From NCBI GenBank assembly GCA_021771915.1, contig JAETNY010000011.1, positions 3,473 through 67,472 of the forward strand: a stretch of 64,000 bases of DNA, written 5' to 3'. Positions 4,397 to 18,333 of the stretch are shown here, piece after piece. The notes beneath the pieces were generated by a model that did no database searches, was not told where the DNA came from, and worked only from the letters and a program-made list of their open reading frames with translations. This stretch comes from Bacillota bacterium. GTDB taxonomy: Bacteria > Bacillota > Dehalobacteriia > UBA4068 > UBA4997. Made by a program: the position numbers and the translations under genes. The first letter of the stretch is position 1. Every line of letters starts with the position of its first letter.

Positions 4397-4430
4397 AAGT
4401 CTGAACCCAAAATCAACTGGATTCAGACTT
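4397..4430. terminator. Hairpin between convergent genes
   Basis: aagtctgaa/ttcagactt stem preceded by an A-run. Confidence 0.55.
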
Positions 4431-4619
4431 ATTACTTCGTACCATTTTGAACTGTACCACATCAACTAATGTCTCTGTTTTACATTTACTGCAATAAAGA
4501 GGAAAATTGAGCATAACTGTATCAAAATATACGCCAACTTTAGTTTTAGCGCCACAGTTTGGGCAATAAGCCCAACGAAAATCATCTTTATCAGGGTTTT
4601 TCCCAGCCTTAATATTCAT
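4413..4619 (-). CDS. Cysteine-rich KTR domain protein
   Basis: CPNCGAKTK...NFPLYCSKCKTETL. Confidence 0.85.
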   Translation of the reverse strand: MNIKAGKNPDKDDFRWAYCPNCGAKTKVGVYFDTVMLNFPLYCSKCKTETLVDVVQFKMVRSNKSESS

Positions 4620-4707: not shown

Positions 4708-6483
4708 TTATTTAACCAATTTATTTAAATAAGACTGTGGATTAGCCCTTAATTCAGCATAGCTGCCCTGCTCAGCAACCTGCCCCTTATCCAAAACAAT
4801 AATCTCATTAGCCATATTGCTTATCTGCTGTATTTTGTGGGAAATCATCAGGCAAATTTTATCATGTGCCAACTCGGTATAAATTTTGACAATGTCATTC
4901 TGCGCGTTTATATCCAAAGCGGCGTCAGGCTCGTCAAAGATATAAAAATCACCGTTTTTCATTATCGTTCTGGCAATAGCAATCTTTTGCCATTCGCCCA
5001 TTGAAAGCTGCTTGCCGTCATCGAACCAATAGCCCAGCTGTGTTTCCAGCTTTTTCTCATCAAGCAGCCTGAAAGGGAAATTAACCGTAGTAAGAGCCTG
5101 CATTATCTTTTCATCGTTATCTAGGCTAGCAATATCCCCATAGGCCACGTTTTCTCTGACCGTGCTTTCGTATTTGGTAAAATCCTGAAACAATACGCTG
5201 GTTAAGCCATAAAAGGAATTTCGCTCAATATCTCGCAGCTCAATACCGTTAAACAAAATTTCTCCCTCATAATTATCATAGAATCCTAACAGCAGCTTAA
5301 TCAAAGTGGATTTGCCAGAGCCGTTATTACCCAAAATGGCCATTATACTGCCTTTGCACAGCTTAAAATTAACATTTTGCAGTGAATAATTAGAACTGTT
5401 GGGATATTTATAGAATAAATTCCGCACTTCAATTTCATCAATGGAATCCAGAATCTGTCCGCCGTTCTGGTCCTGTTCAGCCACCGGCAAATCCATAAAG
5501 TCAAAATACATTCCGGCAAACAACGCGTTTTTAGCTATTGTTGAAAAAACGCTAAATATAGACTTGATTTTGGCCCGCACGTTAAAAACGCTTCGGGTAT
5601 AAGTTATAACATCACCCACCAGAATAAGCTGCAAAACGCCTCTGGAGATAATATACAGCAAAATAAAGCCGGAAATAACATAATCTAAAAAATCTAACAG
5701 AAAATATGTAACCGTCGTCCGCTTCACTATCTGTATATCCTGCCGGATAAATCCCAGGTTCAGCTGCTTAAACCTGTTCAGCATAAAGTCTTTCAAACGA
5801 AAAATCTTAAATTCCTTTATGCCAACCCCTTGAGTAATCAGATAAGATATATACCACGATTTGCGTTCTTTAGTGGTTCTGGCCTTTTGGATATTATATT
5901 GCACCCGGCTAATATGCACTGAATAGGCATATTGAAGAACAGGCACAAAAATCACCGGCAGCACAATCCAGATATTAAAGGCGGCCAAAACAACCAGCAG
6001 CGAGCCAATTGAAAGCAGCGCCTGCGCTGTGCTGACAATGGAGCTAAAAAAAGTTATTATCTGGCTGTTACCCTGGTTTACCGCTCGATTAATCATATTA
6101 AATGTTTCAGTGTTCTCAAAATCCTCCATTTTCAAGGACAGCGCTTTGTCCAAAACGCTTAAAGTCAATTTCATATTCAAATCATAAGTTATCTTACTGG
6201 TATAAAAGCTATATATGGCGGATATCAAAGTGCTGAAAATATCAATAGAAACATAGATTATAAGCATAATAATTATTCTTTTCATATCGTTTAAATTCAG
6301 CTGTATCTGATTCAATATATCCTGCAAAACAACCAACGACACAGCCGGCAAAATACCCAGCAGAATATTTACCACAACTGTCAGCAGCATATATGCTTTG
6401 CTATATGAATAAATCAACTTTAGACATTTGAAAAAAACTGCTAATACCCCATTAATATTTTTCTTTTCTTCCACTTGTTTCAT
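4708..6483 (-). CDS. lanT: Lanthipeptide exporter, NisT/SpaT-like ABC transporter without peptidase domain
   Basis: N-terminal TMD; GNNGSGKST, LSMGEWQK, IFDEP; adjacent to lanC. Confidence 0.88.
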   Translation of the reverse strand: MKQVEEKKNINGVLAVFFKCLKLIYSYSKAYMLLTVVVNILLGILPAVSLVVLQDILNQIQLNLNDMKRIIIMLIIYVSIDIFSTLISAIYSFYTSKITYDLNMKLTLSVLDKALSLKMEDFENTETFNMINRAVNQGNSQIITFFSSIVSTAQALLSIGSLLVVLAAFNIWIVLPVIFVPVLQYAYSVHISRVQYNIQKARTTKERKSWYISYLITQGVGIKEFKIFRLKDFMLNRFKQLNLGFIRQDIQIVKRTTVTYFLLDFLDYVISGFILLYIISRGVLQLILVGDVITYTRSVFNVRAKIKSIFSVFSTIAKNALFAGMYFDFMDLPVAEQDQNGGQILDSIDEIEVRNLFYKYPNSSNYSLQNVNFKLCKGSIMAILGNNGSGKSTLIKLLLGFYDNYEGEILFNGIELRDIERNSFYGLTSVLFQDFTKYESTVRENVAYGDIASLDNDEKIMQALTTVNFPFRLLDEKKLETQLGYWFDDGKQLSMGEWQKIAIARTIMKNGDFYIFDEPDAALDINAQNDIVKIYTELAHDKICLMISHKIQQISNMANEIIVLDKGQVAEQGSYAELRANPQSYLNKLVK

Positions 6484-6498
6484 AACAAGACACCAAAA

Positions 6499-7848
6499 TC
6501 AGCTTATCAGCAAATGCTTTTCGTGCATTGAACCTGGATTAAATAAAGATAGCAAGGCTAATATAACGCCAGTAGTTCCATTCAAATAACTATCGTCGTC
6601 TTCCTCTGGCAAATCTTTCGGCCCATAATCAATGTTTTTGAAGCCATACTTAAAATCCGGATTATACAGGTTCAAAATCTCATCTAAACACATATATAAG
6701 CCAGGCAACAGTTCTTTAAACGATGTTTCTCTATATATCTGATTAAAAATAGCCATAGTGCCGGCAAAACCGTGACAAATAATAGGTGATAATAAATTGT
6801 AAAATCGCAAAGGCGTTTTTGAAATTATCTCCATATTACGTAAATATTCGCTGCCGTCTTTGCCTAGACATTTATACGCCTGATACAGCACACAGGAAAT
6901 GCCTATTGAACCATAACACCAACTCATACGCGTATCAGTTGCTGCCACATTTTGCTTTTTGTATAATTCTGCTGGCAAAATCATCGGCCAGTACATAATA
7001 TCGTTTTTTACTGTTTTATGTTCATCCATAACACTGATTAACTTTTCTATTGCCAGCTGCTGACTGTCAACAGAAATATTTCGTGCCGCAGAATAAGCCA
7101 TAAGGGCTAACGGCCCAGCAATGCCATGCGCCACGCCAAAATCCAAAGTCCCATGTAAATATTGCGTTCTGCGCTCCACCGGCCAGAGATTTTCATTCGT
7201 TACATAAAAACCGATAATTTCTTTATCTTCAACGGTAATATTTGCCGATTTTTTTACCAGATAGCGCAGGATTTGCACCAAAGCCTTTTTTTCAGTTGTA
7301 CAATCCTGTATATACCCCAAGCTTTCTATATACATAAGCAAGTATCTGCCCACGCCAGTCATACCGATAATTATATCATAGTGCTGCACCAGTGTGTTTT
7401 CATTCTCTATTTTGGTTAACTTTGTCATTGTTAAATCACAAACAATTTTATTTAATGATTTAAGAAATTTACTAAATTCACCTGATTTAATCGTTACACC
7501 CAAAAGAGCAAAAGCCATATCTGTTAAACCATGAAAAAGGGCTAAACTATCATAATGCTCTATATTTTTCTTAAAATAAACTAATATATTATATACATTG
7601 TTTAGCCAGCGTTTTTTTTCAAGCAAGAAATCATAGCCATCGCCAATCGCCAACAAGTACGAAGCCAATAAATGACCGTCTATACAATCTCTGTCCTGTT
7701 TCCACATATTCTGTTCATTAGCTGCTAAGTCCTGCAAAACGCCGTCAATTCGGTTATAATAGGCTTCTAATATATCTATGATTTTTTGTTTCTGCTGCTC
7801 ATCTAAAGGAGCCATATTTTGATTAAAAAGTTCTTTATTTAACATCAT
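6499..7848 (-). CDS. lanC: Lanthionine cyclase
   Basis: GVAHGIAG, SWCYG, ICHG Zn-ligand motifs. Confidence 0.95.
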   Translation of the reverse strand: MMLNKELFNQNMAPLDEQQKQKIIDILEAYYNRIDGVLQDLAANEQNMWKQDRDCIDGHLLASYLLAIGDGYDFLLEKKRWLNNVYNILVYFKKNIEHYDSLALFHGLTDMAFALLGVTIKSGEFSKFLKSLNKIVCDLTMTKLTKIENENTLVQHYDIIIGMTGVGRYLLMYIESLGYIQDCTTEKKALVQILRYLVKKSANITVEDKEIIGFYVTNENLWPVERRTQYLHGTLDFGVAHGIAGPLALMAYSAARNISVDSQQLAIEKLISVMDEHKTVKNDIMYWPMILPAELYKKQNVAATDTRMSWCYGSIGISCVLYQAYKCLGKDGSEYLRNMEIISKTPLRFYNLLSPIICHGFAGTMAIFNQIYRETSFKELLPGLYMCLDEILNLYNPDFKYGFKNIDYGPKDLPEEDDDSYLNGTTGVILALLSLFNPGSMHEKHLLIS

Positions 7849-10800
7849 TAAACTGCGCTCCTTTTTTTACATTGCTCGCGTCATGCAGCAACATATTACT
7901 TTTGGTAAAAATAGCATGTCTAGTTAAAAATGACACCTTATGTTCCCACTCACGATTACCGTCATATCTATTGCAGAACATATGGATTAAGGTTAGCAAA
8001 ATATTGTCTATACTGTTAGCGAGCTGCCCAGTTGCCTCTACCTGTTTAATCTGCCGCGCATATTGTTGAATAACCGCTGTTCTCTCCTCAGCAATGCGCT
8101 GAACTTTGGCTGAAAAATTTTTAATATAGTTATCTTCTATCGCATTTAGATAGTCCTTTTTCTGTTTGCGGAATACCTCTTTATATTTAATATTATCCAT
8201 ATATTTAACAAAAAAATCATTAGTTGCCTGTATACCATCATAAAAACAGCCAACCAAATTTTGCATAACCCAAATACCAATTTTCTCCCGCTGAATTTCA
8301 CCTGCATTCTTACTTATTTCTTGTAGCAAGGCAATAACGAATCGACTATCATAGCAAAAATAATTTTCAGCATATCTGATTAGATTTGAACCACCATATC
8401 TCTCAATTTCTCTTTCATATTGAGAAATAATATATTCATAGCTAATCAGATTTTCCTGCAACAAATTAAACCATTCTCTAAATTTCTGCATAATCTCGCC
8501 CAACTTATCTGGCTTTGTAATTTGCAACCGCAGGCGAATATGATATTTAGGATCAGCATACTTTATGAAAAAAAATTTTTTTATAATCGACTGATAAAAC
8601 ATATCATCAATAAACGGTTCCAGATATTTTGCCAAAAAGGTAGAAGCCTGCATTTTATTTACATATATTTTAAAATATATCCACCCCTCGTCTCCTGGAT
8701 ATAGCACTCGATCAGGCGTATAAAAACTAGACAATACATTTCTTACTGCATAAAAGGAACCAGAAGTATTCTCATTTGCACTAGAAATATGCTCCTGCAA
8801 ATCAACCCTGAAAAATGGAACGCTGAATTCCGCAGCATAAAATCTATGCTTCTCGTCCTTAACTAAAGAAGTCGAAATATTTTCATATTCCATTCTCTCT
8901 AAAACGACTTCCTTTCTTTGCTTAACCAATGCTCTATATAGCAATTTAAAAGTAAACTCATTTTCCAAATCCAACACTAACCGATTATCCATATGAGCAT
9001 AATACACATACTTAGGTAACTTCCAAATTTGCAGGTATTCTTTTAGCTCCGTTGCAAACTGGTCCAATAATTTGCCTGTGAACTGTTCAGGATCCAAGCG
9101 CCATTTTTCATTAGACAGAACAATATTGCCAAATTTAATTTTAGGGCAGTAAGCATATTTCATACTTTGCAACATAAATAAATTTTGAATCGGCGACACC
9201 TCATAAGTAGCAGAAATACTGCGTAAAAAACGAATAACCGGATTGCTGGAAAAAACATTATACATACTGTTTGTTATAAACTTCACTCTTTTTTGCAAGG
9301 ACTTAGACCAAATAAACATCTGATTTTTTTTGGGATCATGCCCCAAGTACAAATCATTCAGATTTAACGAAGTGTTATGCTCAAACTCAGTGATACCTAG
9401 ATACAAATTATGATCATACTGACGCTTATAGCTGTACAAATTGGTATTTCTCAAATAATGAGAGACTTCATAAACATCTGCAATAACATAATCTTCACTA
9501 TGATGTAGCTTTTCTCGTCTATATATTTCGTCCATTTCCTGCGAGAAATCAGTATTCAGGGCACTGTCAAAGCGACTGATACCATTACCAGCTTGAGCAG
9601 AGCCTACATTTGGCCCAATGTATATTTCATAACCGGTATCTGCATTGGTAACAAATACGTTTAAGCTGTATGAACTAGCATAATTCAATTTAGCCATTTC
9701 CTCACTATCTATGGCCTTTATGGTTTCAATATCTGCATCTGTTATTTCCACAACAGATCGTCCTTGCCGAAGCGCAGTCATTATTTTATTTTCTAGCATT
9801 CCTTTTATAACATTTAATTTTCTATATGCGTGCCGAGAATTTCCACCTTCTGCTGCTTCAGCCATATACCCATTATATGGTAATCCCAAACCAATATCTG
9901 TGTCAATCACCTCGGTTAGAGGGATTAATGCGTCAGAACCATACTTTACCATAAAAATATTCTTAAAGGCTTGCAACTTCTCGTCTTCATTATATGGCGT
10001 AGCTAGACTCATCATAAAGTCTGAGAATTCTTCCAATTCATTTTTAATTTTAATATCCAACTTGTTATTTTCTGAATCCAATTTCAAAATTGTATAAATA
10101 TAATTCTTGGCCTTAACCACCTGTTCCATAAGCCCGGTTAGGCTTGCCAAAATTTCTTCTCCCTTACCAAACTGCGCCTTAGCATATTCCTCACGCAACT
10201 TGTCTATCTCAACCAATTTATCTATAAGAGCCTGTTCCTCCGCCAGCAAATCTATAAACTTATTGTTTTGCAGCAGGCTGTGCAGCGGATCATCTTCCTT
10301 TGATAATACACAGATATTTGTATATATGTATTCATTTTGCAACAACTCTTTTAAGAATTTGTCAATAATTTTCTGCGGCACATTGGGGTTTTTGGCAAAT
10401 AAAAAGTTGCGCAAATCCTTAAAAGGCACAAAATCGGCGGCAAACTCCCGTACATAATCCACCTGTTTGGTATATTTGATACTTAAATCCTCGGCATGTT
10501 CAACATTTTCCTTGCGCAAGTTAGAGCAATAACAGTTTTTCAAACGAGATTTTGCCTTATAGCAATGCTTATTAAAAATTACCTGCAAATTCAGCAACAA
10601 GCCCGGCATTTCCTCAATTTTCTTTACCAGCTTAAAATACCACTCGTTATCGACCCGGCAAATTTTATGGTATTGCTCTTGCCCAGCCAAGCAAATATCC
10701 GTACCCTCACTACTGAACTCCGCCGTAGCCACACCAGCAAAAAGGCCATATGGCGTTGGTCTAGCAGTCATTCTACCATAATATTTTTTAACCGACTCAA

Positions 10801-11005
10801 TCATTCTATCTGTGGTTTTAGTTGAGCTATCTGCATACATTTTATATAAATCCTGCGAGGCAATAGCCACTGCCTCGGCAAATAGTTCATCTTGCCGGCA
10901 GAAAGCCATAACCTCATCATCTGCCAGTTTTGCAAAATCATAAAATTCATTCAAACTTCTGGCAGGACAACGCATCAATACATGGTTTGCCGCTTGATAC
11001 TGCAT
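7835..11005 (-). CDS. lanB: Full-length lanthipeptide dehydratase
   Basis: RMTARPTPYGLFAG; WIYFKIY, FFIKYADP..HIRLR, YEREIERYGG, HMFCNR; ATG 11005 follows RBS gaggtg. Confidence 0.96.
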   Translation of the reverse strand: MQYQAANHVLMRCPARSLNEFYDFAKLADDEVMAFCRQDELFAEAVAIASQDLYKMYADSSTKTTDRMIESVKKYYGRMTARPTPYGLFAGVATAEFSSEGTDICLAGQEQYHKICRVDNEWYFKLVKKIEEMPGLLLNLQVIFNKHCYKAKSRLKNCYCSNLRKENVEHAEDLSIKYTKQVDYVREFAADFVPFKDLRNFLFAKNPNVPQKIIDKFLKELLQNEYIYTNICVLSKEDDPLHSLLQNNKFIDLLAEEQALIDKLVEIDKLREEYAKAQFGKGEEILASLTGLMEQVVKAKNYIYTILKLDSENNKLDIKIKNELEEFSDFMMSLATPYNEDEKLQAFKNIFMVKYGSDALIPLTEVIDTDIGLGLPYNGYMAEAAEGGNSRHAYRKLNVIKGMLENKIMTALRQGRSVVEITDADIETIKAIDSEEMAKLNYASSYSLNVFVTNADTGYEIYIGPNVGSAQAGNGISRFDSALNTDFSQEMDEIYRREKLHHSEDYVIADVYEVSHYLRNTNLYSYKRQYDHNLYLGITEFEHNTSLNLNDLYLGHDPKKNQMFIWSKSLQKRVKFITNSMYNVFSSNPVIRFLRSISATYEVSPIQNLFMLQSMKYAYCPKIKFGNIVLSNEKWRLDPEQFTGKLLDQFATELKEYLQIWKLPKYVYYAHMDNRLVLDLENEFTFKLLYRALVKQRKEVVLERMEYENISTSLVKDEKHRFYAAEFSVPFFRVDLQEHISSANENTSGSFYAVRNVLSSFYTPDRVLYPGDEGWIYFKIYVNKMQASTFLAKYLEPFIDDMFYQSIIKKFFFIKYADPKYHIRLRLQITKPDKLGEIMQKFREWFNLLQENLISYEYIISQYEREIERYGGSNLIRYAENYFCYDSRFVIALLQEISKNAGEIQREKIGIWVMQNLVGCFYDGIQATNDFFVKYMDNIKYKEVFRKQKKDYLNAIEDNYIKNFSAKVQRIAEERTAVIQQYARQIKQVEATGQLANSIDNILLTLIHMFCNRYDGNREWEHKVSFLTRHAIFTKSNMLLHDASNVKKGAQFNDVK

Positions 11006-11027
11006 AATAATCACCTCGTTAATTTAG

Positions 11028-12209
11028 TTAATCATATCTTAAAGCGTCTATCGGCTCTAAACGGGCGGCTCTGTTAGCTGGCAAAAAGCCGAAAACAACG
11101 CCCAAACCAACCGAAACGCCAAAGGATAACAAAATCGAATCCACCGCCAGCATAAAGGGTAAATTCATAACCTGACAGGCAACGAAACCGACCGCTGTGC
11201 CGGCAGCAATCCCTAGCAGGCCGCCCACGGCGCTGGTGCTGGCAGCTTCGATAATGAATTGCAGGCGAATATCACTGCGCCTTGCCCCGAAAGACTTGCG
11301 CACGCCAATCTCTTTAGTGCGCTCCTGCACAGAAACCGACATAATATTCATAATGCCCACGCCGCCCACCAGCAGCGCAATACCAGCAATTGCTTTCAGC
11401 ACCGAAAGCATACCGCTCTGCATAGATAACATCATTTCCATACGCTCCTTTTGGCTGGTTACGTTAAAATAATCATCTTTTTCGTAACATTCCAGCAGGC
11501 TCTTTTCAATCGCCGCCACCGCCTGCTCCGAGCAGTCCCGGCTCACTGAATTAAGATTGAAGCTGCTCACAAAAGGCGTTTCGCCTAGCTTCAGCACGTT
11601 AGTGTAAGGAATATAAACCACATCATCAGCGCTGCCTGCGCCAGTTTCCAATTCGCCAAAGCTATTAAGCACGCCAACAACCGTATAATTTCTGCCCCGT
11701 ATTTTCAACGTACCGCCCAATGCCGCACCGTTCATAATCTCCTCGGCCACAAAACGCCCCACCACGCAGACGCTGGCGCGGCGTTCAATATCCATATACT
11801 GCAAAAAATCACCCTCGGCCACTTCCATAAGCTGGGTTTGAGGATAGGCCTCGCTGACCCCGGAAATAACCGTCTGCATATAACGCTTATTTCCGTATTT
11901 AACGCCGCCGCCCAAGCCCACAATCGGACTTAAATCACAGAGCAGGGTAGGATTATTGCTCACCAACTCATACATATCCGAAACCGTAATCCGTCTTGTA
12001 GAATCCCTGTTATAGATATTAACGCTAATCATATTTGCGCCCATATTGTCAAACTGCGCCTCCACCTGCGCCAACGTGCCCCGGCCAATGGTCATAATCA
12101 CAATAACCGCCGCCACGCCTACAATAATACCCAGCATAGTCAGCAAAGAGCGCATTTTGCGTGCCAACAGGCTTTTCAGAGCCATTACAAAGGCTTGCCG
12201 AATATCCAT
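11028..12209 (-). CDS. MacB/FtsX-type ABC permease
   Basis: RSLLTMLGIIVGV, GGVGIMNIM..ERTKEIG, PANRAARLEPIDALRYD. Confidence 0.93.
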   Translation of the reverse strand: MDIRQAFVMALKSLLARKMRSLLTMLGIIVGVAAVIVIMTIGRGTLAQVEAQFDNMGANMISVNIYNRDSTRRITVSDMYELVSNNPTLLCDLSPIVGLGGGVKYGNKRYMQTVISGVSEAYPQTQLMEVAEGDFLQYMDIERRASVCVVGRFVAEEIMNGAALGGTLKIRGRNYTVVGVLNSFGELETGAGSADDVVYIPYTNVLKLGETPFVSSFNLNSVSRDCSEQAVAAIEKSLLECYEKDDYFNVTSQKERMEMMLSMQSGMLSVLKAIAGIALLVGGVGIMNIMSVSVQERTKEIGVRKSFGARRSDIRLQFIIEAASTSAVGGLLGIAAGTAVGFVACQVMNLPFMLAVDSILLSFGVSVGLGVVFGFLPANRAARLEPIDALRYD

Positions 12210-12937
12210 TATTCCGCCGCCACAACCGCCTCCGGCGCGTCTGCCGTTCCGTCATAAACAATTTTGCCGTCCTCAAGCCGAATAATTCGCTGTGCCTGCC
12301 GGGCAATGGCGTTATCGTGAGTAATCAGCACCACCGTACGCCCCTCAATATTCAGCTGCTTCAAATAAGCCAAAATCTCCCGACCAGTTTGGCTGTCCAA
12401 TGCACCGGTGGGCTCGTCCGCCAAAATCACCGCCGGCTCGCCAGCCAAGGCTCTGGCAATCGCCACCCGCTGCTGCTGACCGCCGGAAAGCTGATTCGGC
12501 ACATTCTGCGCTTTATCCGCCAGCCCCACCTGCTCCAACAGTTTCAGCGAGCGTTTGTGCCGCTCTCCTGCGGGCATACCGGCGTATAGCATTGCCAGTT
12601 CCACATTCTCGCAAAGGTTCAGCTTGGGTATTAAATTATACTGCTGGAAAATAAAGCCCAGCGTTTTGTTACGCAGTTTGGCCTTGGCATTATCGTCCAT
12701 ACTTAAAACATCTGCCCCGGCCAGATGATAACTGCCGGAGGTGGGCTTATCCAAACAGCCGATGATATTCATACAAGTGGATTTGCCGCTGCCGGAGGCC
12801 CCCACAATCGCCGCAAACTCGCCTCGGCGTATTTCCAAGCTTACGCCGTCCAAAGCGTGAACCGACGTTTCCCCAGTTTGATAAATTTTATATACATCTT
12901 GCAATTTGATGAGAACATCGTTATTTTGTTCATTCAT
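12209..12937 (-). CDS. MacB/LolD-type ABC ATPase
   Basis: GASGSGKST, LSGGQQQRV, ILADEPTGALD. Confidence 0.95.
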   Translation of the reverse strand: MNEQNNDVLIKLQDVYKIYQTGETSVHALDGVSLEIRRGEFAAIVGASGSGKSTCMNIIGCLDKPTSGSYHLAGADVLSMDDNAKAKLRNKTLGFIFQQYNLIPKLNLCENVELAMLYAGMPAGERHKRSLKLLEQVGLADKAQNVPNQLSGGQQQRVAIARALAGEPAVILADEPTGALDSQTGREILAYLKQLNIEGRTVVLITHDNAIARQAQRIIRLEDGKIVYDGTADAPEAVVAAE

Positions 12938-12955
12938 TAACTGTATACTCCTTGA

Positions 12956-14437
12956 TTAGTTTTCGGCTGTGCCGACTGCTCCTGTCGGAATGACTATTTT
13001 CTCGCCCTCCTGCACGCCGGAAACAATTTCTACATAATAATCATCATTCATACCCAACTCTACCTGCCGCCAAGTATAGCCCGGCAAATCGCTTGGCTGT
13101 CCCTCCGAACCCTCGACCAGCAGCATATTGCCCCGGCTTACGGCGTTCATCGGCACAACCAGCACATCTTCTGCCTGCTGCAAAACCACCTCGGCGTTGA
13201 CGTTCATACCCGGCAACAGTGCGCCGAACTCGTCCAGCGTTACAGTAATGGGGTAAGTGGTAACGCCGTTGCTGCTGTTGCCTTTAATGCTGATTTTGCT
13301 GACATAGCCTGCAAACTCTTGCCCCTGCAAAGCATCAGCCACCACCTGCACCGGCTGGCCAACTTTAATCAGGCCGATGTCCAGTTCGTCAACGTTCATC
13401 ACAAATTCCAGTTTGCTCATATCGTAGATAACTGCCATTTCGCTGGCGTTATTATTACTGTCGATTGTGTCGCCCTGCTCGAATTTCTTTTCAATCACCG
13501 TCCCAGCAATCGGCGAAGTGATTGTGTAATACGCCAGCGCCGCCTGTGCGTTATCCTGCTCAATTCTGGCTCGGCGCAGGTCATTTTCCAAACTATCGTC
13601 AGATAAACGAATAAGCGTCTGGCCTTTCTGCACACGCTCGCCCTCGCTCACCAGAATTTCCGCAACATCGCCGCTAGCTTTGGCTAAAATCTGCTCACTA
13701 TAATTATATTCCAGCAGACCACTGCGCACACTGGTAAAACCGCCAGCATCGGCCGCCGCCCAATCCCCCTCCTGCAAACTGCCGGGATTTTCAACAGCAA
13801 TAGTTAATTTATGGGTCAGCACGCCGCCGGAGCTTACCTGTTCCACACTGGAAATTGCCTTAATCGTGCCGCTGATACGCTGACCGTCGTTTTCCAAAAT
13901 AACCTCTGCGGCCTGCCCAACTTGCAGCTGCTCGGCTTCGTCAGTTTTGAAAGGCGCGTCCAGCAGCATAATATCCCGGTCGCGCAGATACAAAAGCTGA
14001 CTGCCCACATTCACGCTGTCGCCAGTCTCGCAATGGACTGTTACGACCTGACCAGTCTCCGGCGCAGTTACATTCAATTCCGCAATCTCTGTTTCGGCTT
14101 CTTGCAAGTTAAGTCGAGCCAGATTATAGCTGTTTTGCGCCCGGCCTGCGTCTATCTGATATAGCAGCTGCCCGGCTTCAATCATATCCCCCTCGCTAAA
14201 GGGTGCGCTTAAAACATCGCCGGTAACCAGCGCCTTAACGGTATAGGAGTTCACCGGCTGCACAGAGCCTACGCCCTCCATAATTGAGATAATAGAGCTG
14301 CGTTCCACTAATTGATAGCGATACGCCGGACTTTCCGCATTTTGCGCTCTATCCTGCCGGCCAACAAACCACCAAATTGCAATTCCCGCTATTATTAGCA
14401 ACAAGATAGCAATTACAATTTTTTTCCTTTTTAACAT
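12956..14437 (-). CDS. Membrane-fusion/adaptor protein (MacA/YknX-like)
   Basis: N-terminal TM anchor, repeated lipoyl-like motifs (VSEGERVQKGQ, ITSPIAGTV), LLPGMNV. Confidence 0.9.
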   Translation of the reverse strand: MLKRKKIVIAILLLIIAGIAIWWFVGRQDRAQNAESPAYRYQLVERSSIISIMEGVGSVQPVNSYTVKALVTGDVLSAPFSEGDMIEAGQLLYQIDAGRAQNSYNLARLNLQEAETEIAELNVTAPETGQVVTVHCETGDSVNVGSQLLYLRDRDIMLLDAPFKTDEAEQLQVGQAAEVILENDGQRISGTIKAISSVEQVSSGGVLTHKLTIAVENPGSLQEGDWAAADAGGFTSVRSGLLEYNYSEQILAKASGDVAEILVSEGERVQKGQTLIRLSDDSLENDLRRARIEQDNAQAALAYYTITSPIAGTVIEKKFEQGDTIDSNNNASEMAVIYDMSKLEFVMNVDELDIGLIKVGQPVQVVADALQGQEFAGYVSKISIKGNSSNGVTTYPITVTLDEFGALLPGMNVNAEVVLQQAEDVLVVPMNAVSRGNMLLVEGSEGQPSDLPGYTWRQVELGMNDDYYVEIVSGVQEGEKIVIPTGAVGTAEN

Positions 14438-14450
14438 TTTTATAAATTCC

Positions 14451-15677
14451 TTAATCGCTGTTTATAGCGTCTACAATTTCCATTTTCGCCGCTTGTTTTG
14501 CCGGATATGTACCAAAAGCCCAACCAATCAATATAGTAATAACAACTGCCACTAATACAGGCCAAATAGCAGCATACAAATAACTGAAAGAAGATTGTGT
14601 CCACAGTATAAGAAATAAAACTACAAAAAAACCTGATAAGACACCTAATAAACCGCCTATCAAACCAGTAATAACCGCCTCCAGTGCAAATTGTTGCTGA
14701 ATATTGCGATTAGTTGCGCCAAAAGCCTTGCGAATACCAATTTCTTTAGTTCGAGCCTGCACACCAGCTAGCATAACATTCATAATGCCTACGCCGCCGA
14801 CAAGCAACACAATACCTGAAAAAAAACTCCAATGAATAGCATCACCAAGAATATAACCGCGTACCATTTCCGAGGTATCTCCAATGCTATAAACCTGCAA
14901 TATCCAACCATTATTTTCTTCTCTTCTAGTGCGCTCACAAAGCATTTCTTTTATTAAGACCTGGGTTTTATACATATTTTCTTTACCATTGGCACAGACA
15001 AAATATTTATCATTATAATTACCATAGGAACTTATTGATTCACCATTAATCTTTCTAGCATTAGTGTAAGGAATATAAACCTCATTATTTCTGATAGGTA
15101 TAATATCATTTTGCACATCAGCAAACACACCAATTACAGTGTAATTTTCACCCCAAATTTTCAAAGTTTGTCCTAATGCATTGCCTTCCATCAAGTCATT
15201 AGCAATACTGTGGCCAATCACACAAACATTACGCTCTCTGGAAATATCCATATATTCCAGAAAACGTCCCTCATGCAAACGCAACACCGGCACCATATCA
15301 AGATAGCTGCTGTTCACACCATAAACTCGCGCATCATCTTTCGTTCTTTCACCATATCTCACGCCTCCAGGCAAGTCAAATTCAACATATGGTGATATAC
15401 CACTGATAATCTCTGGATTGTCCTGCGCTAGTTGTTCCATATCGCTTGGCATGACTTTCATTGGCAAATCCACACTCACATAAGTCCAGGTTTGCATAAG
15501 CGTTGGAGCATATTCATCTTGCTGTATCTGAAGATCCATCAATGAAATATTATTGGCAGTCCAAGCAAAAACAAATCCAGCTATACCGATAACCATACCT
15601 AGAATAGCTTGCAAACAACGCCCTTTATTAACAAATAAACTTCTGACAGAATTTTGCAATGTTTGTCTAATATTCAT
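14451..15677 (-). CDS. Second MacB/FtsX-type ABC permease
   Basis: GGVGIMNVM..RTKEIGIRKAFGA; start placed at ATG 15677 (MNIRQ, RBS aagga; parallels MDIRQ of the paralog). Confidence 0.9.
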   Translation of the reverse strand: MNIRQTLQNSVRSLFVNKGRCLQAILGMVIGIAGFVFAWTANNISLMDLQIQQDEYAPTLMQTWTYVSVDLPMKVMPSDMEQLAQDNPEIISGISPYVEFDLPGGVRYGERTKDDARVYGVNSSYLDMVPVLRLHEGRFLEYMDISRERNVCVIGHSIANDLMEGNALGQTLKIWGENYTVIGVFADVQNDIIPIRNNEVYIPYTNARKINGESISSYGNYNDKYFVCANGKENMYKTQVLIKEMLCERTRREENNGWILQVYSIGDTSEMVRGYILGDAIHWSFFSGIVLLVGGVGIMNVMLAGVQARTKEIGIRKAFGATNRNIQQQFALEAVITGLIGGLLGVLSGFFVVLFLILWTQSSFSYLYAAIWPVLVAVVITILIGWAFGTYPAKQAAKMEIVDAINSD

Positions 15678-15755
15678 TCTATATTCCTTTGGCATAATGT
15701 TCTGATAAAATATATACAAATGTGGGCTATAAAATTTCAAAATTTATTTAAGTAA

Positions 15756-15938
15756 TTATCTGTCGCAAGGCATAGTAGACACACCACCGCAGGACATGCT
15801 ACAATCACCACAAGTATCACAATTGGAAAGACAATCATTGCATGTACCACAGCCAGTTCTGAAAGTGATTGCCTTAGTGCTATCATCAACATTTGTTCCA
15901 ACAGTTACATCCAGATCAAAATCTTCGTACATTGCCAT
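15756..15938 (-). CDS. lanA: Class I lanthipeptide precursor, FDLD leader
   Basis: MAMYEDFDLDV leader; Ser/Thr/Cys-rich core; strong RBS aggaggaggtg; same strand as lanBC. Confidence 0.93.
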   Translation of the reverse strand: MAMYEDFDLDVTVGTNVDDSTKAITFRTGCGTCNDCLSNCDTCGDCSMSCGGVSTMPCDR

Positions 15939-16027
15939 TATTTTTCACCTCCTCCTGCTTGCTGACCAAGTTTACACAAATGCGTCCTCGCATCGGCCAA
16001 CACAAACCTTTGCAACAATTATTTGCC

Positions 16028-16059
16028 GCAGATGATAGCTAAAATTTGCTATCATCTGC
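16028..16059. promoter_or_regulatory. Perfect 12-bp hairpin/operator in the lanA leader
   Basis: gcagatgatagc-taaaattt-gctatcatctgc. Confidence 0.6.
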
Positions 16060-16189
16060 AACATCGTTTTATAATGACTGGCCTTGGTAAGTATTTTATA
16101 GCCCACAAATGTATCAAATTTAATAGATTGATAAAAATTACTTTTCATAATAATCTTGTTTGATAATTTATTTAGTAATTTTTACCTTT

Positions 16190-16230
16190 CTATTATATAA
16201 GCAGCACGAGAAGGGCAAAATGTAACGCTA
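16190..16230 (-). promoter_or_regulatory. Putative ECF-sigma promoter upstream of lanA
   Basis: 35/41 identical to 17677-17717. Confidence 0.7.
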
Positions 16231-16284
16231 AATTTTAAAATATTTTCGCAAACCTAACTTTTAGCTTCATTTTGCCATTTAAGC

Positions 16285-16327
16285 AAAAAAAAATTGCACA
16301 TCACAGAAGCAAATCTGCAATGTGCAA
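16285..16327 (-). terminator. Intrinsic terminator of the anti-sigma operon
   Basis: ttgcacat/atgtgcaa stem followed by 9 T on the minus strand. Confidence 0.75.
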
Positions 16328-16354
16328 CAAATAAAATTATCAAATTATAATTTA

Positions 16355-16783
16355 TTATACCGCAGCCGTGATAAATTCTCTGGAATCATATCCGCCTTTT
16401 TCAGCATAAAAATATACCTTGGCTCGATATTGGTAACCTGATTTAGCGCCATAATAATACACATTTGATGCATGTCGTCTGGTATTATAGGCCAACATAT
16501 TAGAATTATCATTACTGGACATTGTAGCCACCGCTGTCCAACTGCTCGAACCCAGCGCTTTCTCCTGAATAACGATCGTTTTAGCTCCGATTACATCCAT
16601 TGTGCCAGTACCGCTTATATTAAAAGTTACTGTTATTGTATTTCCAGAAGAACGAGCTGCCTGTGCCACGCAATCTGTAATATATTCACTGGAATAAATT
16701 GTAGCATTAGCAACAGATGTAATACAAAAAAATGCAACCAAAATTAATGATATTAAAGAAATTCTTTTATACATTATTTTCAC
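16355..16783 (-). CDS. Secreted hypothetical protein coupled to the anti-sigma gene
   Basis: Signal peptide ending ANA; 4-nt overlap with upstream gene. Confidence 0.8.
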   Translation of the reverse strand: MKIMYKRISLISLILVAFFCITSVANATIYSSEYITDCVAQAARSSGNTITVTFNISGTGTMDVIGAKTIVIQEKALGSSSWTAVATMSSNDNSNMLAYNTRRHASNVYYYGAKSGYQYRAKVYFYAEKGGYDSREFITAAV

Positions 16784-17661
16784 TCTCCATAAATTGAATT
16801 TATTATATTTTCAGCATCTTCTAAAGAGAAATGACCTTTAATAGAACCTGCATAATCTTCATTCCGCCATACTATTGCTCTAATACCTAAATTATCCATA
16901 ATATAATACTTGGTACCATACATTTCATATTCAGTAACTTCCGAAGTATCTTTTTCATATAATGGAGTATTATTATCGTTTATGGGAAACATATAATCTA
17001 TATACAATTCATCAATGCTGTTATTTTTTTCTCTGACAAAATCGGCACAAATACTATTTAATGCACCATCTTTGAATAAATCTACTTTATCAAATACATA
17101 ACCCTCCGGCAGCCATTCAGGCACTAATTGAAGTCCCCCAGCATAATCCGCTACAACATCAGCTAACTCGGTAGTTACGGTAACCGGTTCAAACCAAAAC
17201 TGATCGTCATTCCATCTGCCGATAACGCCAAGAGGGTTATAACCCAAAGCATATGCCGTAGCGGTCCCAATAGATAGAAACAACACCAGAACTGCTACCG
17301 CGCTAGAAAATTTACGCCAGCTTTTTTTGACAAAAGATAAAACCTTACCTTGAGAATTTTCCTGCGGAATATTATTGCTTACCTCTTTGTCCGTCTCATC
17401 ATCAAAGGTATATAACCCTTCTTCCTTTTGAGCCATAGGATAATAATATTCAAAAAATTCATTCAATGAAGTTTCAACATCTTTATGCTCAACATTACGG
17501 CGTTCCGCTATCAGATTGGCAATATATAAGGCCTCCTCCGCATCAATCTGTTCAGCTTCTGGGGCGTCAAAATCAGCTCGCAGAATCGCCTCTAAAACAG
17601 ATGTATCTAGCAAGTCGAATTTCTTATAATTTGGACACCCTTTTGCTTCGACTTTCGACAT
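16780..17661 (-). CDS. Single-pass membrane anti-sigma factor (DUF4367-like C-terminus)
   Basis: Central TM helix, VPEWLPEGY motif, directly downstream of the ECF sigma. Confidence 0.78.
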   Translation of the reverse strand: MSKVEAKGCPNYKKFDLLDTSVLEAILRADFDAPEAEQIDAEEALYIANLIAERRNVEHKDVETSLNEFFEYYYPMAQKEEGLYTFDDETDKEVSNNIPQENSQGKVLSFVKKSWRKFSSAVAVLVLFLSIGTATAYALGYNPLGVIGRWNDDQFWFEPVTVTTELADVVADYAGGLQLVPEWLPEGYVFDKVDLFKDGALNSICADFVREKNNSIDELYIDYMFPINDNNTPLYEKDTSEVTEYEMYGTKYYIMDNLGIRAIVWRNEDYAGSIKGHFSLEDAENIINSIYGE

Positions 17662-17676
17662 AACAAAACCCCCCTC

Positions 17677-17717
17677 CTATAATATAAGCAGCATAACAAG
17701 TGCAAAATATAACGCTA
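17677..17717 (-). promoter_or_regulatory. Putative ECF-sigma promoter upstream of the anti-sigma gene
   Basis: Second copy of the 41-bp sequence, ending just before RBS ggaggg. Confidence 0.7.
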
Positions 17718-17745
17718 CAATTTATGTTTTTTTATAAAAATTTCA

Positions 17746-18333
17746 CTATTTTTTATTGCCAAATAATTTGCGTATTTTTATTCTTGCCCGATATAAACGC
17801 TGCTCAATTACTCTAATGCTCACGCCATACTTATCTGCAAGATCTTTTAAGGATTTATCCTCGACAGTAAATTCTTTTATCAGCTGGAACTCCTTATGTA
17901 CAGCTAAATCAGAATATAAGAAATCTACATCTTCATCCATAGGCTTGTTATCAACAAAATCTTCCATACCCATCTCAACACCAAATTCTATATCCGCCTG
18001 TTGAGGTAAATATACCATTAATTGTGCAAGCTGCTGTTTTTTTCTTATAATCTGCGATATAGATAACTTTAAAGATTTATAAAGCCATTTTACAGGATCA
18101 TCATATTGCATAACTTTCTCTATCTTATACTTACCATCATCATCTTTCTTATCTTTCCTGCAAAGATCTAAAAAAACATTTTGCACTGCCTCTTCCGCAT
18201 TACTTTTTTCCAAACGACCTATTGCATAATTAAAAAGCGACTCCTGATTAGTTCTATATAATTTTTCTATAAATTCTCGTTCTTCCTTAGTTAATTCACA
18301 TCGCTCCTGTCGTCGCTTGTCCATAATTCCCAT
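17746..18333 (-). CDS. ECF-type RNA polymerase sigma factor
   Basis: Region 2 AEEAVQNVFL...WLY; region 4 SLKDLADKYGVS..RLYRARIKIR. Confidence 0.85.
   Translation of the reverse strand: MGIMDKRRQERCELTKEEREFIEKLYRTNQESLFNYAIGRLEKSNAEEAVQNVFLDLCRKDKKDDDGKYKIEKVMQYDDPVKWLYKSLKLSISQIIRKKQQLAQLMVYLPQQADIEFGVEMGMEDFVDNKPMDEDVDFLYSDLAVHKEFQLIKEFTVEDKSLKDLADKYGVSIRVIEQRLYRARIKIRKLFGNKK

What the first reader, a model, noticed from the sequence alone, without database searches (positions are those of the whole stretch)
15756..15938. Anionic 8-Cys lanthipeptide core with tandem CxxCxxCxxxC motifs
Seen: predicted core (cleavage after STKA is assumed) ITFRTGCGTCNDCLSNCDTCGDCSMSCGGVSTMPCDR has 8 Cys, 9 Ser/Thr, 4 Asp and 2 Arg, and a 10-residue internal duplication (TGCGTCNDCL / SNCDTCGDCS). 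Cys spacing gives two chained CxxCxxCxxxC motifs. Established: nisin/epidermin-type class I cores are cationic, have fewer Cys and carry a lipid II motif not seen here; CxxCxxCxxxC is the 4Fe-4S ferredoxin spacing. Inference: a new heavily bridged scaffold, or a partly cyclised metal-binding or signalling peptide rather than a pore former.
Basis: partly seen in the sequence, partly recalled or inferred. Interest (0 to 1): 0.75.

Follow-up and report, generated by a model that had tools for sequence, protein, structure and literature searches.

The report
Uncharacterised gut class I lanthipeptide precursor
This small gene encodes the precursor of a thioether-bridged bacterial peptide of a known general type but an undescribed, acidic and very cysteine-rich family, carried on a mobile element of a mouse-gut bacterium and probably used as an antimicrobial.

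Summary
The 60-aa ORF at 15756-15938 (minus strand) is real. It has a strong RBS and an invariant FDLD leader box, and it heads an operon: lanA, MacB/FtsX permease, HlyD adaptor, ABC ATPase, second permease, LanB, LanC, LanT. The "10-residue duplication" is no more than chance. The ferredoxin-like spacing occurs in only 3 of 11 relatives, whereas Ser/Thr sit 3-5 residues before the Cys across the family, as thioether rings require.

It is therefore a class I lanthipeptide precursor of a small family that matches no curated model. I found 11 sequence clusters among 5.8 billion proteins and no characterised relative. None of the 11 predicted cores is cationic.

The closest solved enzymes are MadB and MadC (maddinglicin). 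No LanP-type or C39 peptidase was found in the genome; a Lys/Arg at residues 22-24 marks the likely cleavage site.

The cluster is cargo on a conjugative-type element, and a diverged second copy lies elsewhere in the genome. Contigs from mouse-gut RNA libraries cover lanA.

An Fe-S or metal-binding role is not supported. An antimicrobial role is inferred, not shown. Interest is moderate.

The parts
15756..15938 (-). lanA: 60-aa class I lanthipeptide precursor (P0001), stop codon included
   Evidence: Translation. Relatives. Contigs from RNA libraries cover it at 100% identity in 4 of 4 runs laid.
15873..15938 (-). Leader peptide, residues 1-22 (MAMYEDFDLDVTVGTNVDDSTK). The FDLD box is residues 7-10 (nt 15909-15920).
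   Evidence: M1, A2, Y4-D10 are invariant in 11 of 11 relatives. K/R lies at residues 22-24 in 8 of 11. The cut site itself is inferred.
15759..15872 (-). Predicted core, residues 23-60 (AITFRTGCGTC...MPCDR): 8 Cys, 9 Ser/Thr
   Evidence: C36, C43, C50 and C58 are invariant and C46 nearly so.
15946..15956 (-). Ribosome-binding site AGGAGGAGGTG
   Evidence: Read. Conserved in the three loci aligned.
16093..16127 (-). Upstream arm of the inverted repeat that brackets lanA
   Evidence: RNA folds close the long-range stem. RNA-library contigs of two runs end at 16127 and 16130.
15701..15735 (-). Downstream arm of the same inverted repeat, between the lanA stop and the start of the next gene (15677)
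   Evidence: 35 nt, 80% complementary. Equivalent 21-nt arms occur in the two other loci, with one compensatory change.
16024..16063 (-). 16-bp hairpin in the lanA leader region
16192..16197 (-). Candidate -10 hexamer TATAAT of the lanA promoter (inferred; the -35 is poor)
   Evidence: Conserved block. An RNA-library contig of run X16 ends at 16172.
14451..15677 (-). MacB/FtsX-type permease 1, AT-rich, the most diverged transporter gene between the two paralogous clusters (43% identity)
   Evidence: Pfam MacB_PCD 2.5e-25 and FtsX 1.2e-21. Paralogue comparison.
12956..14437 (-). HlyD-family membrane-fusion/adaptor protein
   Evidence: Pfam HlyD_3 8.9e-30 and HlyD_D23 1.1e-26.
12209..12937 (-). 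ABC ATPase of the MacB-type pump
   Evidence: Pfam ABC_tran 5.1e-33.
11028..12209 (-). MacB/FtsX-type permease 2
   Evidence: Pfam MacB_PCD 1.6e-36 and FtsX 2.7e-23.
7835..11014 (-). LanB dehydratase (1059 aa)
   Evidence: Lant_dehydr_N 1.5e-116 (profile positions 1-649 of 649) and Lant_dehydr_C 3e-49. PDB 9g04 (apo MadB) 3.3e-103 and NisB 1.1e-58.
6499..7848 (-). LanC cyclase (449 aa)
   Evidence: LANC_like 2.8e-42. MadC 8byk 3.8e-33 and NisC 2.5e-24, with the WCYG, CHG and AHG motifs aligned and identical.
4708..6483 (-). LanT-like ABC exporter (591 aa) without a peptidase domain
   Evidence: ABC_membrane at residues 33-296 and ABC_tran at 368-520; no C39 match.

Best explanation
The ORF is the structural gene (lanA) of an uncharacterised family of class I lanthipeptides.

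Shown:
- The gene is real, conserved, and covered by contigs from RNA libraries.
- It carries the FDLD box used by LanB/LanC-type enzymes.
- It is followed in one direction by intact LanB, LanC and LanT genes and a four-gene MacB-type ABC/HlyD pump.

Inferred:
- LanB dehydrates core Ser/Thr through glutamyl-tRNA-dependent glutamylation and elimination.
- The zinc enzyme LanC adds Cys thiols to the resulting Dha/Dhb. This gives a compact polycyclic peptide built on five family-conserved rings. Each Ser/Thr donor lies 3-5 residues before C36, C43, C46, C50 or C58, and some rings are intertwined.
- This member has up to two or three further rings from its extra Cys (C30, C33, C40).
- LanT exports the modified peptide.
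- The leader is removed after K22 (or R27) by a protease outside the cluster, possibly a trypsin-like gut protease, because the genome shows no LanP-type or C39 peptidase.
- The MacAB-like pump protects the producer.
- The product is most likely a non-pore-forming ('type B-like') acidic antimicrobial, used in competition in the mouse gut and spread on a conjugative-type element.
For: Gene and family:
- ORF and RBS.
- 11 related precursors have a near-invariant leader and a variable core that keeps its Cys residues and a [ST]CGGVxxMPCDR tail.

Enzymes:
- LanB, LanC and LanT domains are full length.
- The zinc-ligand motifs align with NisC and MadC.
- The closest solved enzymes are MadB and MadC, whose substrate also has an FDLD box needed for binding.

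Ring signal: Ser/Thr stand at -1, -3, -4, -5 of Cys in 29, 21, 22 and 23 of 70 Cys, against 8, 3 and 7 at -2, -6 and -7.

Leader removal:
- No Peptidase_S8 or C39 match in the 98.55%-complete genome.
- K/R at residues 22-24 in 8 of 11 members.

Immunity: MacB-type pumps with adaptors protect Gram-positive producers from their own peptides, as YknXYZ does for SDP and AS-48EFGH for AS-48 (PMC5985334, passages read). Permease 1, next to lanA, is far more diverged between the two paralogous clusters (43%) than the rest of the pump (79-86%).

Expression: all 4 mouse-gut or faecal RNA-library runs laid (4 studies) hold 100%-identical contigs over lanA. In 3 of them the lanA contig has word depth 42-57, against 6-9 for its neighbours. 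The tool rates this as a weak measure.

Mobile context: relaxase, NikA/MobC, topoisomerase III and serine recombinases surround the cluster. LanB was found in 1 of 72 genomes of the class, the window's own.
Against: - No chemistry was done: dehydration, ring number, ring topology and activity are all inferred.
- C40 has no Ser/Thr at -3 to -5, so at least one Cys may stay free or pair in an unusual way.
- The cluster has no LanP, LanI, LanFEG or LanRK, so leader removal, immunity and regulation rest on analogy.
- 3 of 11 members (P0007, P0010, P0013) lack a K/R at residues 22-24.
- RNA-library contigs cannot show strand or level, and DNA carry-over is possible. Run X15 shows flat depth.
- An acidic peptide is atypical for a membrane-targeting lantibiotic.
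Confidence: 0.72

Rival explanations
1. It is a genuine LanBC-modified lanthipeptide, but its role is not antibiosis. It could be a signal, a surface-active or morphogenetic peptide, or a factor that serves the mobile element.
For: All 11 predicted cores have net charge 0 to -4, unlike nisin-type pore formers. No nisin/gallidermin model is matched. There is no LanI or LanFEG immunity set. The cluster travels on a mobile element, with a second copy in the same genome.
Against: A four-gene MacB/HlyD pump sits directly after lanA, and its proximal permease diverges together with the peptide. This is the arrangement used for self-protection against endogenous toxic peptides (PMC5985334). The hypervariable core is typical of antagonistic peptides. 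Neutral or acidic lantibiotics that inhibit cell-wall synthesis are known (mersacidin type, recalled).
Confidence: 0.17
2. It is a partly cyclised or unmodified Cys-rich peptide that binds a metal or an Fe-S cluster through the ferredoxin-like CxxCxxCxxxC spacing.
For: The chained spacing is real and non-random in this peptide (0 of 200,000 shuffles). There are weak composition-driven hits to an Fe-S subunit (E 0.093, 11.4 bits against a cut-off of 349) and to a 4Fe-4S cluster in the Atlas structure search, which rests on a model of pLDDT 0.30. One Cys (C40) lacks an obvious ring donor.
Against: The motif occurs in 3 of 11 relatives and the chain in 1 of 11. The first Cys is not conserved. No Pro follows the fourth Cys. 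No Fer4 Pfam match at E<=10 in 11 of 11 members. Intact LanB and LanC with zinc-ligand motifs lie in the same operon. The peptide is exported, and thioether formation would consume the thiols.
Confidence: 0.04
3. It is a silent or decaying cluster whose peptide is not made or not modified.
For: No leader protease was found. The cluster is absent from all 59 relatives searched, so it is a recent acquisition.
Against: All eight genes are intact and full length. The identical peptide was seen on 394 contigs. The DNA is held by runs of 13 studies, including 6 RNA-library runs from 5 studies. The paralogous cluster keeps every gene at 43-86% identity, which indicates purifying selection.
Confidence: 0.04

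Closest known systems
Maddinglicin (MadA/MadB/MadC, Clostridium sp. Maddingley) and geobacillin I
   Same: Class I system with an FDLD leader box. MadB (9g04, E 3.3e-103) and MadC (8byk, E 3.8e-33) are the closest solved enzymes. Both peptides are Cys-rich (7 Cys / 7 rings) with intertwined C-terminal rings and no nisin hinge (PMC9889658, passages read).
   Different: MadA's N-terminal rings resemble nisin's (PMC9889658), and nothing like them is seen here. P0001 had no significant match to any lantibiotic chain in the PDB. The core here is acidic. The cluster uses a MacB/HlyD pump and has no protease.
Nisin/gallidermin family (Pfam PF02052, TIGR03731)
   Same: LanB/LanC/LanT logic and an FxLD leader box at a similar distance from the likely cut site. 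The Atlas feature search puts gallidermin/nisin and 'FDLD family class I lanthipeptide' clusters nearest (scores 0.84-0.85, below the tool's 0.9 bar, so a lead only).
   Different: 0 of 11 members reach a family cut-off; one has E 0.055 to TIGR03731. By inspection there is no ring A/B lipid II motif and no cationic tail. There is no NisP, NisI, NisFEG or NisRK.
Type B (globular, uncharged or acidic) lantibiotics such as mersacidin and actagardine (class II; recalled, not tested)
   Same: Compact, heavily bridged and non-cationic. An acidic residue often stands just before a ring-closing Cys (NDC, GDC, DDC, DEC), which recalls mersacidin's essential Glu.
   Different: Those peptides are made by LanM enzymes, are shorter (about 19-20 aa), and share no sequence relationship. 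The resemblance is functional speculation only.
Nisin O of the gut bacterium Blautia obeum
   Same: A class I cluster of a gut Bacillota that lacks a leader-cleaving protease (PMC11811420, abstract seen in the listing). Activation by a gut protease such as trypsin is my recalled analogy for this kind of cluster and comes from no call.
   Different: Nisin O is a cationic nisin homologue with two-component regulators. This family is unrelated in its core.
MacB-type self-protection pumps of Gram-positives (YknXYZ for SDP; AS-48EFGH for AS-48)
   Same: FtsX/MacB permease, ABC ATPase and HlyD/MacA-like adaptor encoded beside an endogenous toxic peptide (PMC5985334; Pfam).
   Different: This pump has two different permeases (35% identical to each other's paralogue) and one ATPase. 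It is attached to a LanBC cluster in place of LanFEG. Its function has not been tested.

Membership tests
Class I lanthipeptide (LanBC type) | Precursor with an N-terminal leader carrying an FxLD-type box | tested here: met
   FDLD at residues 7-10, invariant in 11 of 11 relatives. The box is required for MadB and MadC binding (PMC9889658 and PMC12241602).
Class I lanthipeptide (LanBC type) | Core rich in Ser/Thr and Cys, spaced suitably for (methyl)lanthionine rings | tested here: met
   8 Cys and 9 Ser/Thr in the core. Across the family, Ser/Thr are enriched at -3 to -5 of Cys (21-23 of 70) against 3-8 of 70 at -2, -6 and -7.
Class I lanthipeptide (LanBC type) | Full-length LanB dehydratase (glutamylation and elimination domains) in the cluster | tested here: met
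   PF04738 1.5e-116 over profile positions 1-649 of 649, and PF14028 3e-49 over 1-254 of 255. Catalytic residues were not checked one by one.
Class I lanthipeptide (LanBC type) | Separate LanC cyclase with zinc ligands | tested here: met
   PF05147 2.8e-42. The WCYG and CHG motifs align identically with NisC and MadC. Which residues are the ligands is recalled.
Class I lanthipeptide (LanBC type) | Thioether rings present in the product | not testable with these tools
   Needs mass spectrometry or NMR.
Nisin/gallidermin family | Match to PF02052 / TIGR03731 and lipid II-binding rings A/B | tested here: not met
   0 of 11 members are above a cut-off; the best is E 0.055 for one member. No A/B-ring-like N-terminus on inspection.
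4Fe-4S ferredoxin-type cluster-binding motif | Conserved CxxCxxCxxxCP motif and a match to Fer4 models | tested here: not met
   The spacing occurs in 3 of 11 members. No Pro follows the fourth Cys. No Fer4 hit at E<=10.
Radical-SAM Cys-Xaa-Xaa-Xaa repeat targets (TIGR04117) | Family match and an adjacent radical SAM maturase | tested here: not met
   2 of 11 members hit at E 0.02, below the cut-off. No gene in the cluster has a radical SAM domain.

The most novel reading that the evidence does not exclude
The mature peptide carries seven or eight thioether rings in about 38 residues and has a net negative charge. That would be the most densely bridged class I lanthipeptide, made by nisin-type enzymes but behaving like a globular 'type B' lantibiotic with a target or mode not yet described for class I. 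Its mRNA would be set apart from the operon by a conserved long-range RNA duplex (or a DNA inversion switch) formed by the inverted repeat that brackets lanA.
Probability: 0.2. Interest if true: 0.65.

Novelty: new variant of a known kind. Interest (0 to 1): 0.42.

Why it matters
The result adds an uncatalogued precursor family to class I lanthipeptides. The family is acidic, very Cys-dense, and paired with a MacB-type pump instead of the usual immunity genes. It is carried on a conjugative-type element, and its DNA stands in mouse-gut RNA libraries. If the product is active, it could shape competition in the mouse gut microbiota. It would also broaden the known substrate range of LanB and LanC enzymes, which matters for peptide engineering. 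It does not open a new kind of biology: genome mining regularly turns up new lanthipeptide cores.

Tried and rejected
Searches that found nothing or could not be made:
Strain variants and source names were therefore not seen.
- Two scans of genome contigs found no relative. The one hit, L006, is a chance MALYEDFD string inside a 400-aa membrane protein.
- The metagenome-contig scan gave a single locus, L008.
- The plasmid collection has no relative of the precursor. LanB relatives there are at most 29% identical.
- 400 other genomes of the phylum yielded only one LanB-like hit, at 24% identity.
- Rfam gave nothing above noise in 15700-16500.
- PDB sequence search with P0001 gave only Cys-composition hits.
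- Full-text search for YEDFDLD, SCGGVS and MPCDR gave no relevant paper.
- Supplements of PMC7268733 (1 file held) and PMC11953309 (4 files held) have no hit. Supplements of PMC11251773 could not be read. The sequence may therefore still sit in an unseen mining table.

Sequences left out:
- P0005 (1572 aa, 9 matched stretches, E 2e-6). I took it, without inspecting it, for a Cys-repeat protein.
- P0003, a 68-aa variant that diverges after residue 38.

Readings dropped:
- The sigma-like/DUF4367/142-aa genes upstream looked like a dedicated regulator. The 142-aa protein matches at 5 places in this genome, and 3 of them lack lanA. I now treat these genes as part of the mobile-element backbone.
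- The stretch 16171-16337 has next to no cover in three RNA-library runs. This is recorded here only, and one run bridges it.
- No strand-changing joints appeared in the four RNA-library runs. This is too weak to bear on the inversion idea.

Full report
**1. The observation**

On the minus strand, window 15756-15938 reads MAMYEDFDLDVTVGTNVDDSTKAITFRTGCGTCNDCLSNCDTCGDCSMSCGGVSTMPCDR plus a stop. AGGAGGAGGTG lies seven bases before the ATG.

The Cys spacing is 2,2,3,2,2,3,7, which gives two chained CxxCxxCxxxC motifs. That chain never arose in 200,000 shuffles of the core, and a single motif arose in 5,637. The spacing is therefore not random.

The claimed 10-residue internal duplication is weak. 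It has 5 of 10 identical residues (three of them Cys) and 17 of 30 bases. 2,190 of 5,000 shuffles gave an equally good self-match.

**2. The surroundings**

Eight genes run in one direction on the minus strand:

| Gene | Coordinates | Evidence |
|---|---|---|
| lanA | 15756-15938 | |
| MacB/FtsX permease 1 | 14451-15677 | MacB_PCD and FtsX domains |
| HlyD-family adaptor | 12956-14437 | HlyD_3 and HlyD_D23 |
| ABC ATPase | 12209-12937 | ABC_tran |
| MacB/FtsX permease 2 | 11028-12209 | MacB_PCD and FtsX domains |
| LanB | 7835-11014 | Lant_dehydr_N 1.5e-116 full length; Lant_dehydr_C 3e-49 |
| LanC | 6499-7848 | LANC_like 2.8e-42 |
| ABC exporter (LanT-like) | 4708-6483 | no peptidase domain |

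LanC aligns with MadC (8byk, 3.8e-33) and NisC (2.5e-24). The WCYG, CHG and AHG motifs are identical. That these motifs hold the zinc ligands and the catalytic His is recalled. LanB's best solved relative is 9g04 (3.3e-103), which is apo MadB (PMC12241602, passages read). NisB scores 1.1e-58.

The genome (98.55% complete) gave no Peptidase_S8 match and no Peptidase_C39 match, while the control genomes did.

**3. The family**

Three searches defined the family:
- A word-indexed search of 5.8 billion proteins.
- An exhaustive phmmer search of 1.84 billion representatives.
- A six-frame search of the window's own genome.

Together they gave 11 distinct precursors of 52-62 aa (alignment A2). I dropped P0003, a variant that diverges after residue 38, and P0005, a 1572-aa Cys-repeat protein that I did not inspect.

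What is conserved and what varies:
- M1, A2 and Y4-D10 (YEDFDLD) are invariant.
- The core varies but keeps C36, C43, C50 and C58, nearly always C46, and a tail [ST]C[GST]GVxx[MR]PCDR.
- Cys number ranges from 5 to 8. The window's peptide has the most, and its first Cys is unique to it.
- The ferredoxin-like spacing occurs in 3 of 11 members and the chain in 1 of 11.
- Ser/Thr stand at -1, -3, -4 and -5 of Cys in 29, 21, 22 and 23 of 70 cases, against 8, 3 and 7 at -2, -6 and -7. This is the pattern expected if each dehydrated residue closes a ring on a Cys 3-5 residues downstream, often with its donor inside the previous ring.

From this I infer five family-wide rings: T32 to C36, S38 to C43, T42 to C46, S47 to C50, and S54 or T55 to C58. 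This member could add T25 to C30 and T28 to C33. C40 has no donor at the usual distance.

All 11 predicted cores have net charge 0 to -4.

No curated model covers the family. No Pfam or NCBIfam cut-off is reached by any member, and the best hit is E 0.055 to TIGR03731 for one member. The Atlas feature search puts gallidermin/nisin and 'FDLD family class I lanthipeptide' clusters nearest, at 0.84-0.85. That is below the tool's reliability bar, so it is only a lead.

**4. Leader removal**

Eight of 11 members have Lys or Arg at residues 22-24, 12-14 residues after the FDLD box. The other three (P0007, P0010, P0013) have only K16, plus K27 in P0007.

For this peptide that points to a cut after K22, giving a 38-aa core AITFR...CDR. 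R27 is the alternative.

With no LanP-type or C39 peptidase found, I infer a protease outside the cluster. It may be a trypsin-like gut protease. The nisin O cluster of a gut Blautia likewise lacks a leader protease (PMC11811420, abstract seen in the listing).

**5. Function**

Dehydration, cyclisation and export follow from the enzyme set and are inferred, not shown.

The MacB/HlyD pump is read as self-protection by analogy with YknXYZ (SDP) and AS-48EFGH (PMC5985334, passages read).

Two observations fit a peptide-specific role for permease 1:
- Between the two clusters of this genome it is 43% identical, against 79-86% for the adaptor, ATPase and permease 2.
- It shares the low G+C of lanA (33-39%), whereas the other three pump genes sit in a roughly 50% G+C block.

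An acidic, fully ring-constrained peptide without a cationic tail is unlikely to form nisin-type pores. A compact 'type B-like' inhibitor is my preferred guess. The mersacidin analogy is recalled and untested.

**6. Mobility, habitat and expression**

Mobility:
- The cluster lies between a MobA/VirD2 relaxase with NikA/MobC, a topoisomerase III and an SNF2/methylase giant on one side, and two large serine recombinases on the other.
- A syntenic second element on contig C3 carries a diverged cluster. LanB is 70% identical, LanC 68% and LanT 82%. Its precursor is MAIYEDFDLDVQSG...CAGTCPR.

Distribution:
- The precursor family was not found in 59 relatives.
- LanB was found in 1 of 72 genomes of the class, the window's own.
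- One distant LanB-like hit (24% identity) appeared among 400 other genomes of the phylum.

Habitat and expression:
- The identical peptide stands on 394 contigs in the protein collection.
- The DNA is held by runs of 13 studies labelled mouse gut, mouse or faeces metagenome. Six of these runs, from five studies, are RNA libraries.
- All four RNA-library runs laid (four studies) hold 100%-identical contigs over lanA.
- In three of them the lanA contig has mean word depth 42-57, against 6-9 for neighbouring contigs. Those contigs end at 16127, 16130 and 16172.
- The fourth run is flat.
- The tool warns that contig depth is a poor measure and that DNA can be present in RNA libraries. This is a hint of strong expression, not proof.

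**7. Regulatory DNA (outside the finding)**

The roughly 400 bp upstream of lanA is 81% identical on average across the window, the C3 paralogue and metagenome locus L008. The precursors themselves are only about 50-60% identical.

The region contains:
- the terminator of the upstream gene (16293-16328);
- a conserved TATAAT-type element (16192-16197);
- a 16-bp hairpin (16024-16063).

In all three loci an inverted repeat brackets lanA:

| Locus | Upstream arm | Downstream arm | Length, complementarity |
|---|---|---|---|
| window | 16093-16127 | 15701-15735 | 35 nt, 80% |
| L003 (C3 paralogue) | 10422-10442 | 10789-10809 | 21 nt, 90% |
| L008 (metagenome) | 1200-1220 | 1599-1619 | 21 nt, 90% |

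The arms show one compensatory change: GTGGGC/GCCCAC in the window against GTGAGC/GCTCAC in the other two. RNA folds of the window and C3 versions close this long-range stem in both the MFE and the centroid structures, with z-scores of -3.25 and -4.10. Two RNA-library contigs end at the outer edge of the upstream arm.

Three readings remain open: a stabilising or processing 'panhandle' for lanA mRNA, a DNA inversion switch, or paired operator sites. Rfam has nothing here.

**8. Verdict**

This is a genuine class I lanthipeptide precursor of an uncatalogued, acidic, Cys-dense family with an atypical accessory gene set. The Fe-S idea is not supported. Novelty lies at the level of a new variant of a well-known kind.

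I found no paper that describes it, either in the full-text search or in the supplements I could read. Mining tables I could not see may still list it.

Noticed in passing
window 15701-15735 and 16093-16127; L003 10422-10442/10789-10809; L008 1200-1220/1599-1619: A conserved inverted repeat brackets lanA and its leader in 3 of 3 loci, with one compensatory change. RNA folds close it as a long-range stem (z -3.25 and -4.10). It could be an mRNA panhandle or processing site, an inversion switch, or paired operator sites.
   Followed up: partly
window 15939-16354: The intergenic region upstream of lanA is far better conserved (81% mean column identity) than the precursors it precedes. It includes a 16-bp hairpin (16024-16063) and a conserved block at about 15960-16010. 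No Rfam family matches.
   Followed up: partly
G000:C3:35800-51200 (L003, L009): A second, diverged copy of the whole lanthipeptide cluster sits on a related mobile element in the same genome. It has a 52-aa, 6-Cys precursor and one extra FtsX permease.
   Followed up: partly
window 10800-14400: The adaptor, ATPase and permease 2 genes form a block of about 50% G+C inside a cluster of 33-39% G+C. They are also the best-conserved genes between the two paralogous clusters, which suggests a mosaic origin for the pump.
   Followed up: no
window 16355-18333; also G000 C13, C21, C31: A sigma-like gene, a DUF4367 membrane protein and a 142-aa secreted protein with no Pfam family lie upstream of lanA. 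The 142-aa protein matches at five places in this genome, each with a DUF4367-like gene just upstream, and the cargo downstream varies. At least 124 relatives of the 142-aa protein exist in the protein collection. The function of this module is unknown.
   Followed up: partly
window 33325-38565: A 1746-aa secreted protein built of many Cys-rich repeat modules. By eye its C-terminal repeats look like SLH repeats; this was not tested.
   Followed up: no
window 15170-15244: The high-depth RNA-library contigs that cover lanA stop about 500 nt into the permease 1 gene in two runs. No terminator-like site was found there.
   Followed up: no
window 4413-4619: A small Cys_rich_KTR zinc-ribbon protein lies between LanT and the HTH gene. 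The C3 element has two copies of it.
   Followed up: no
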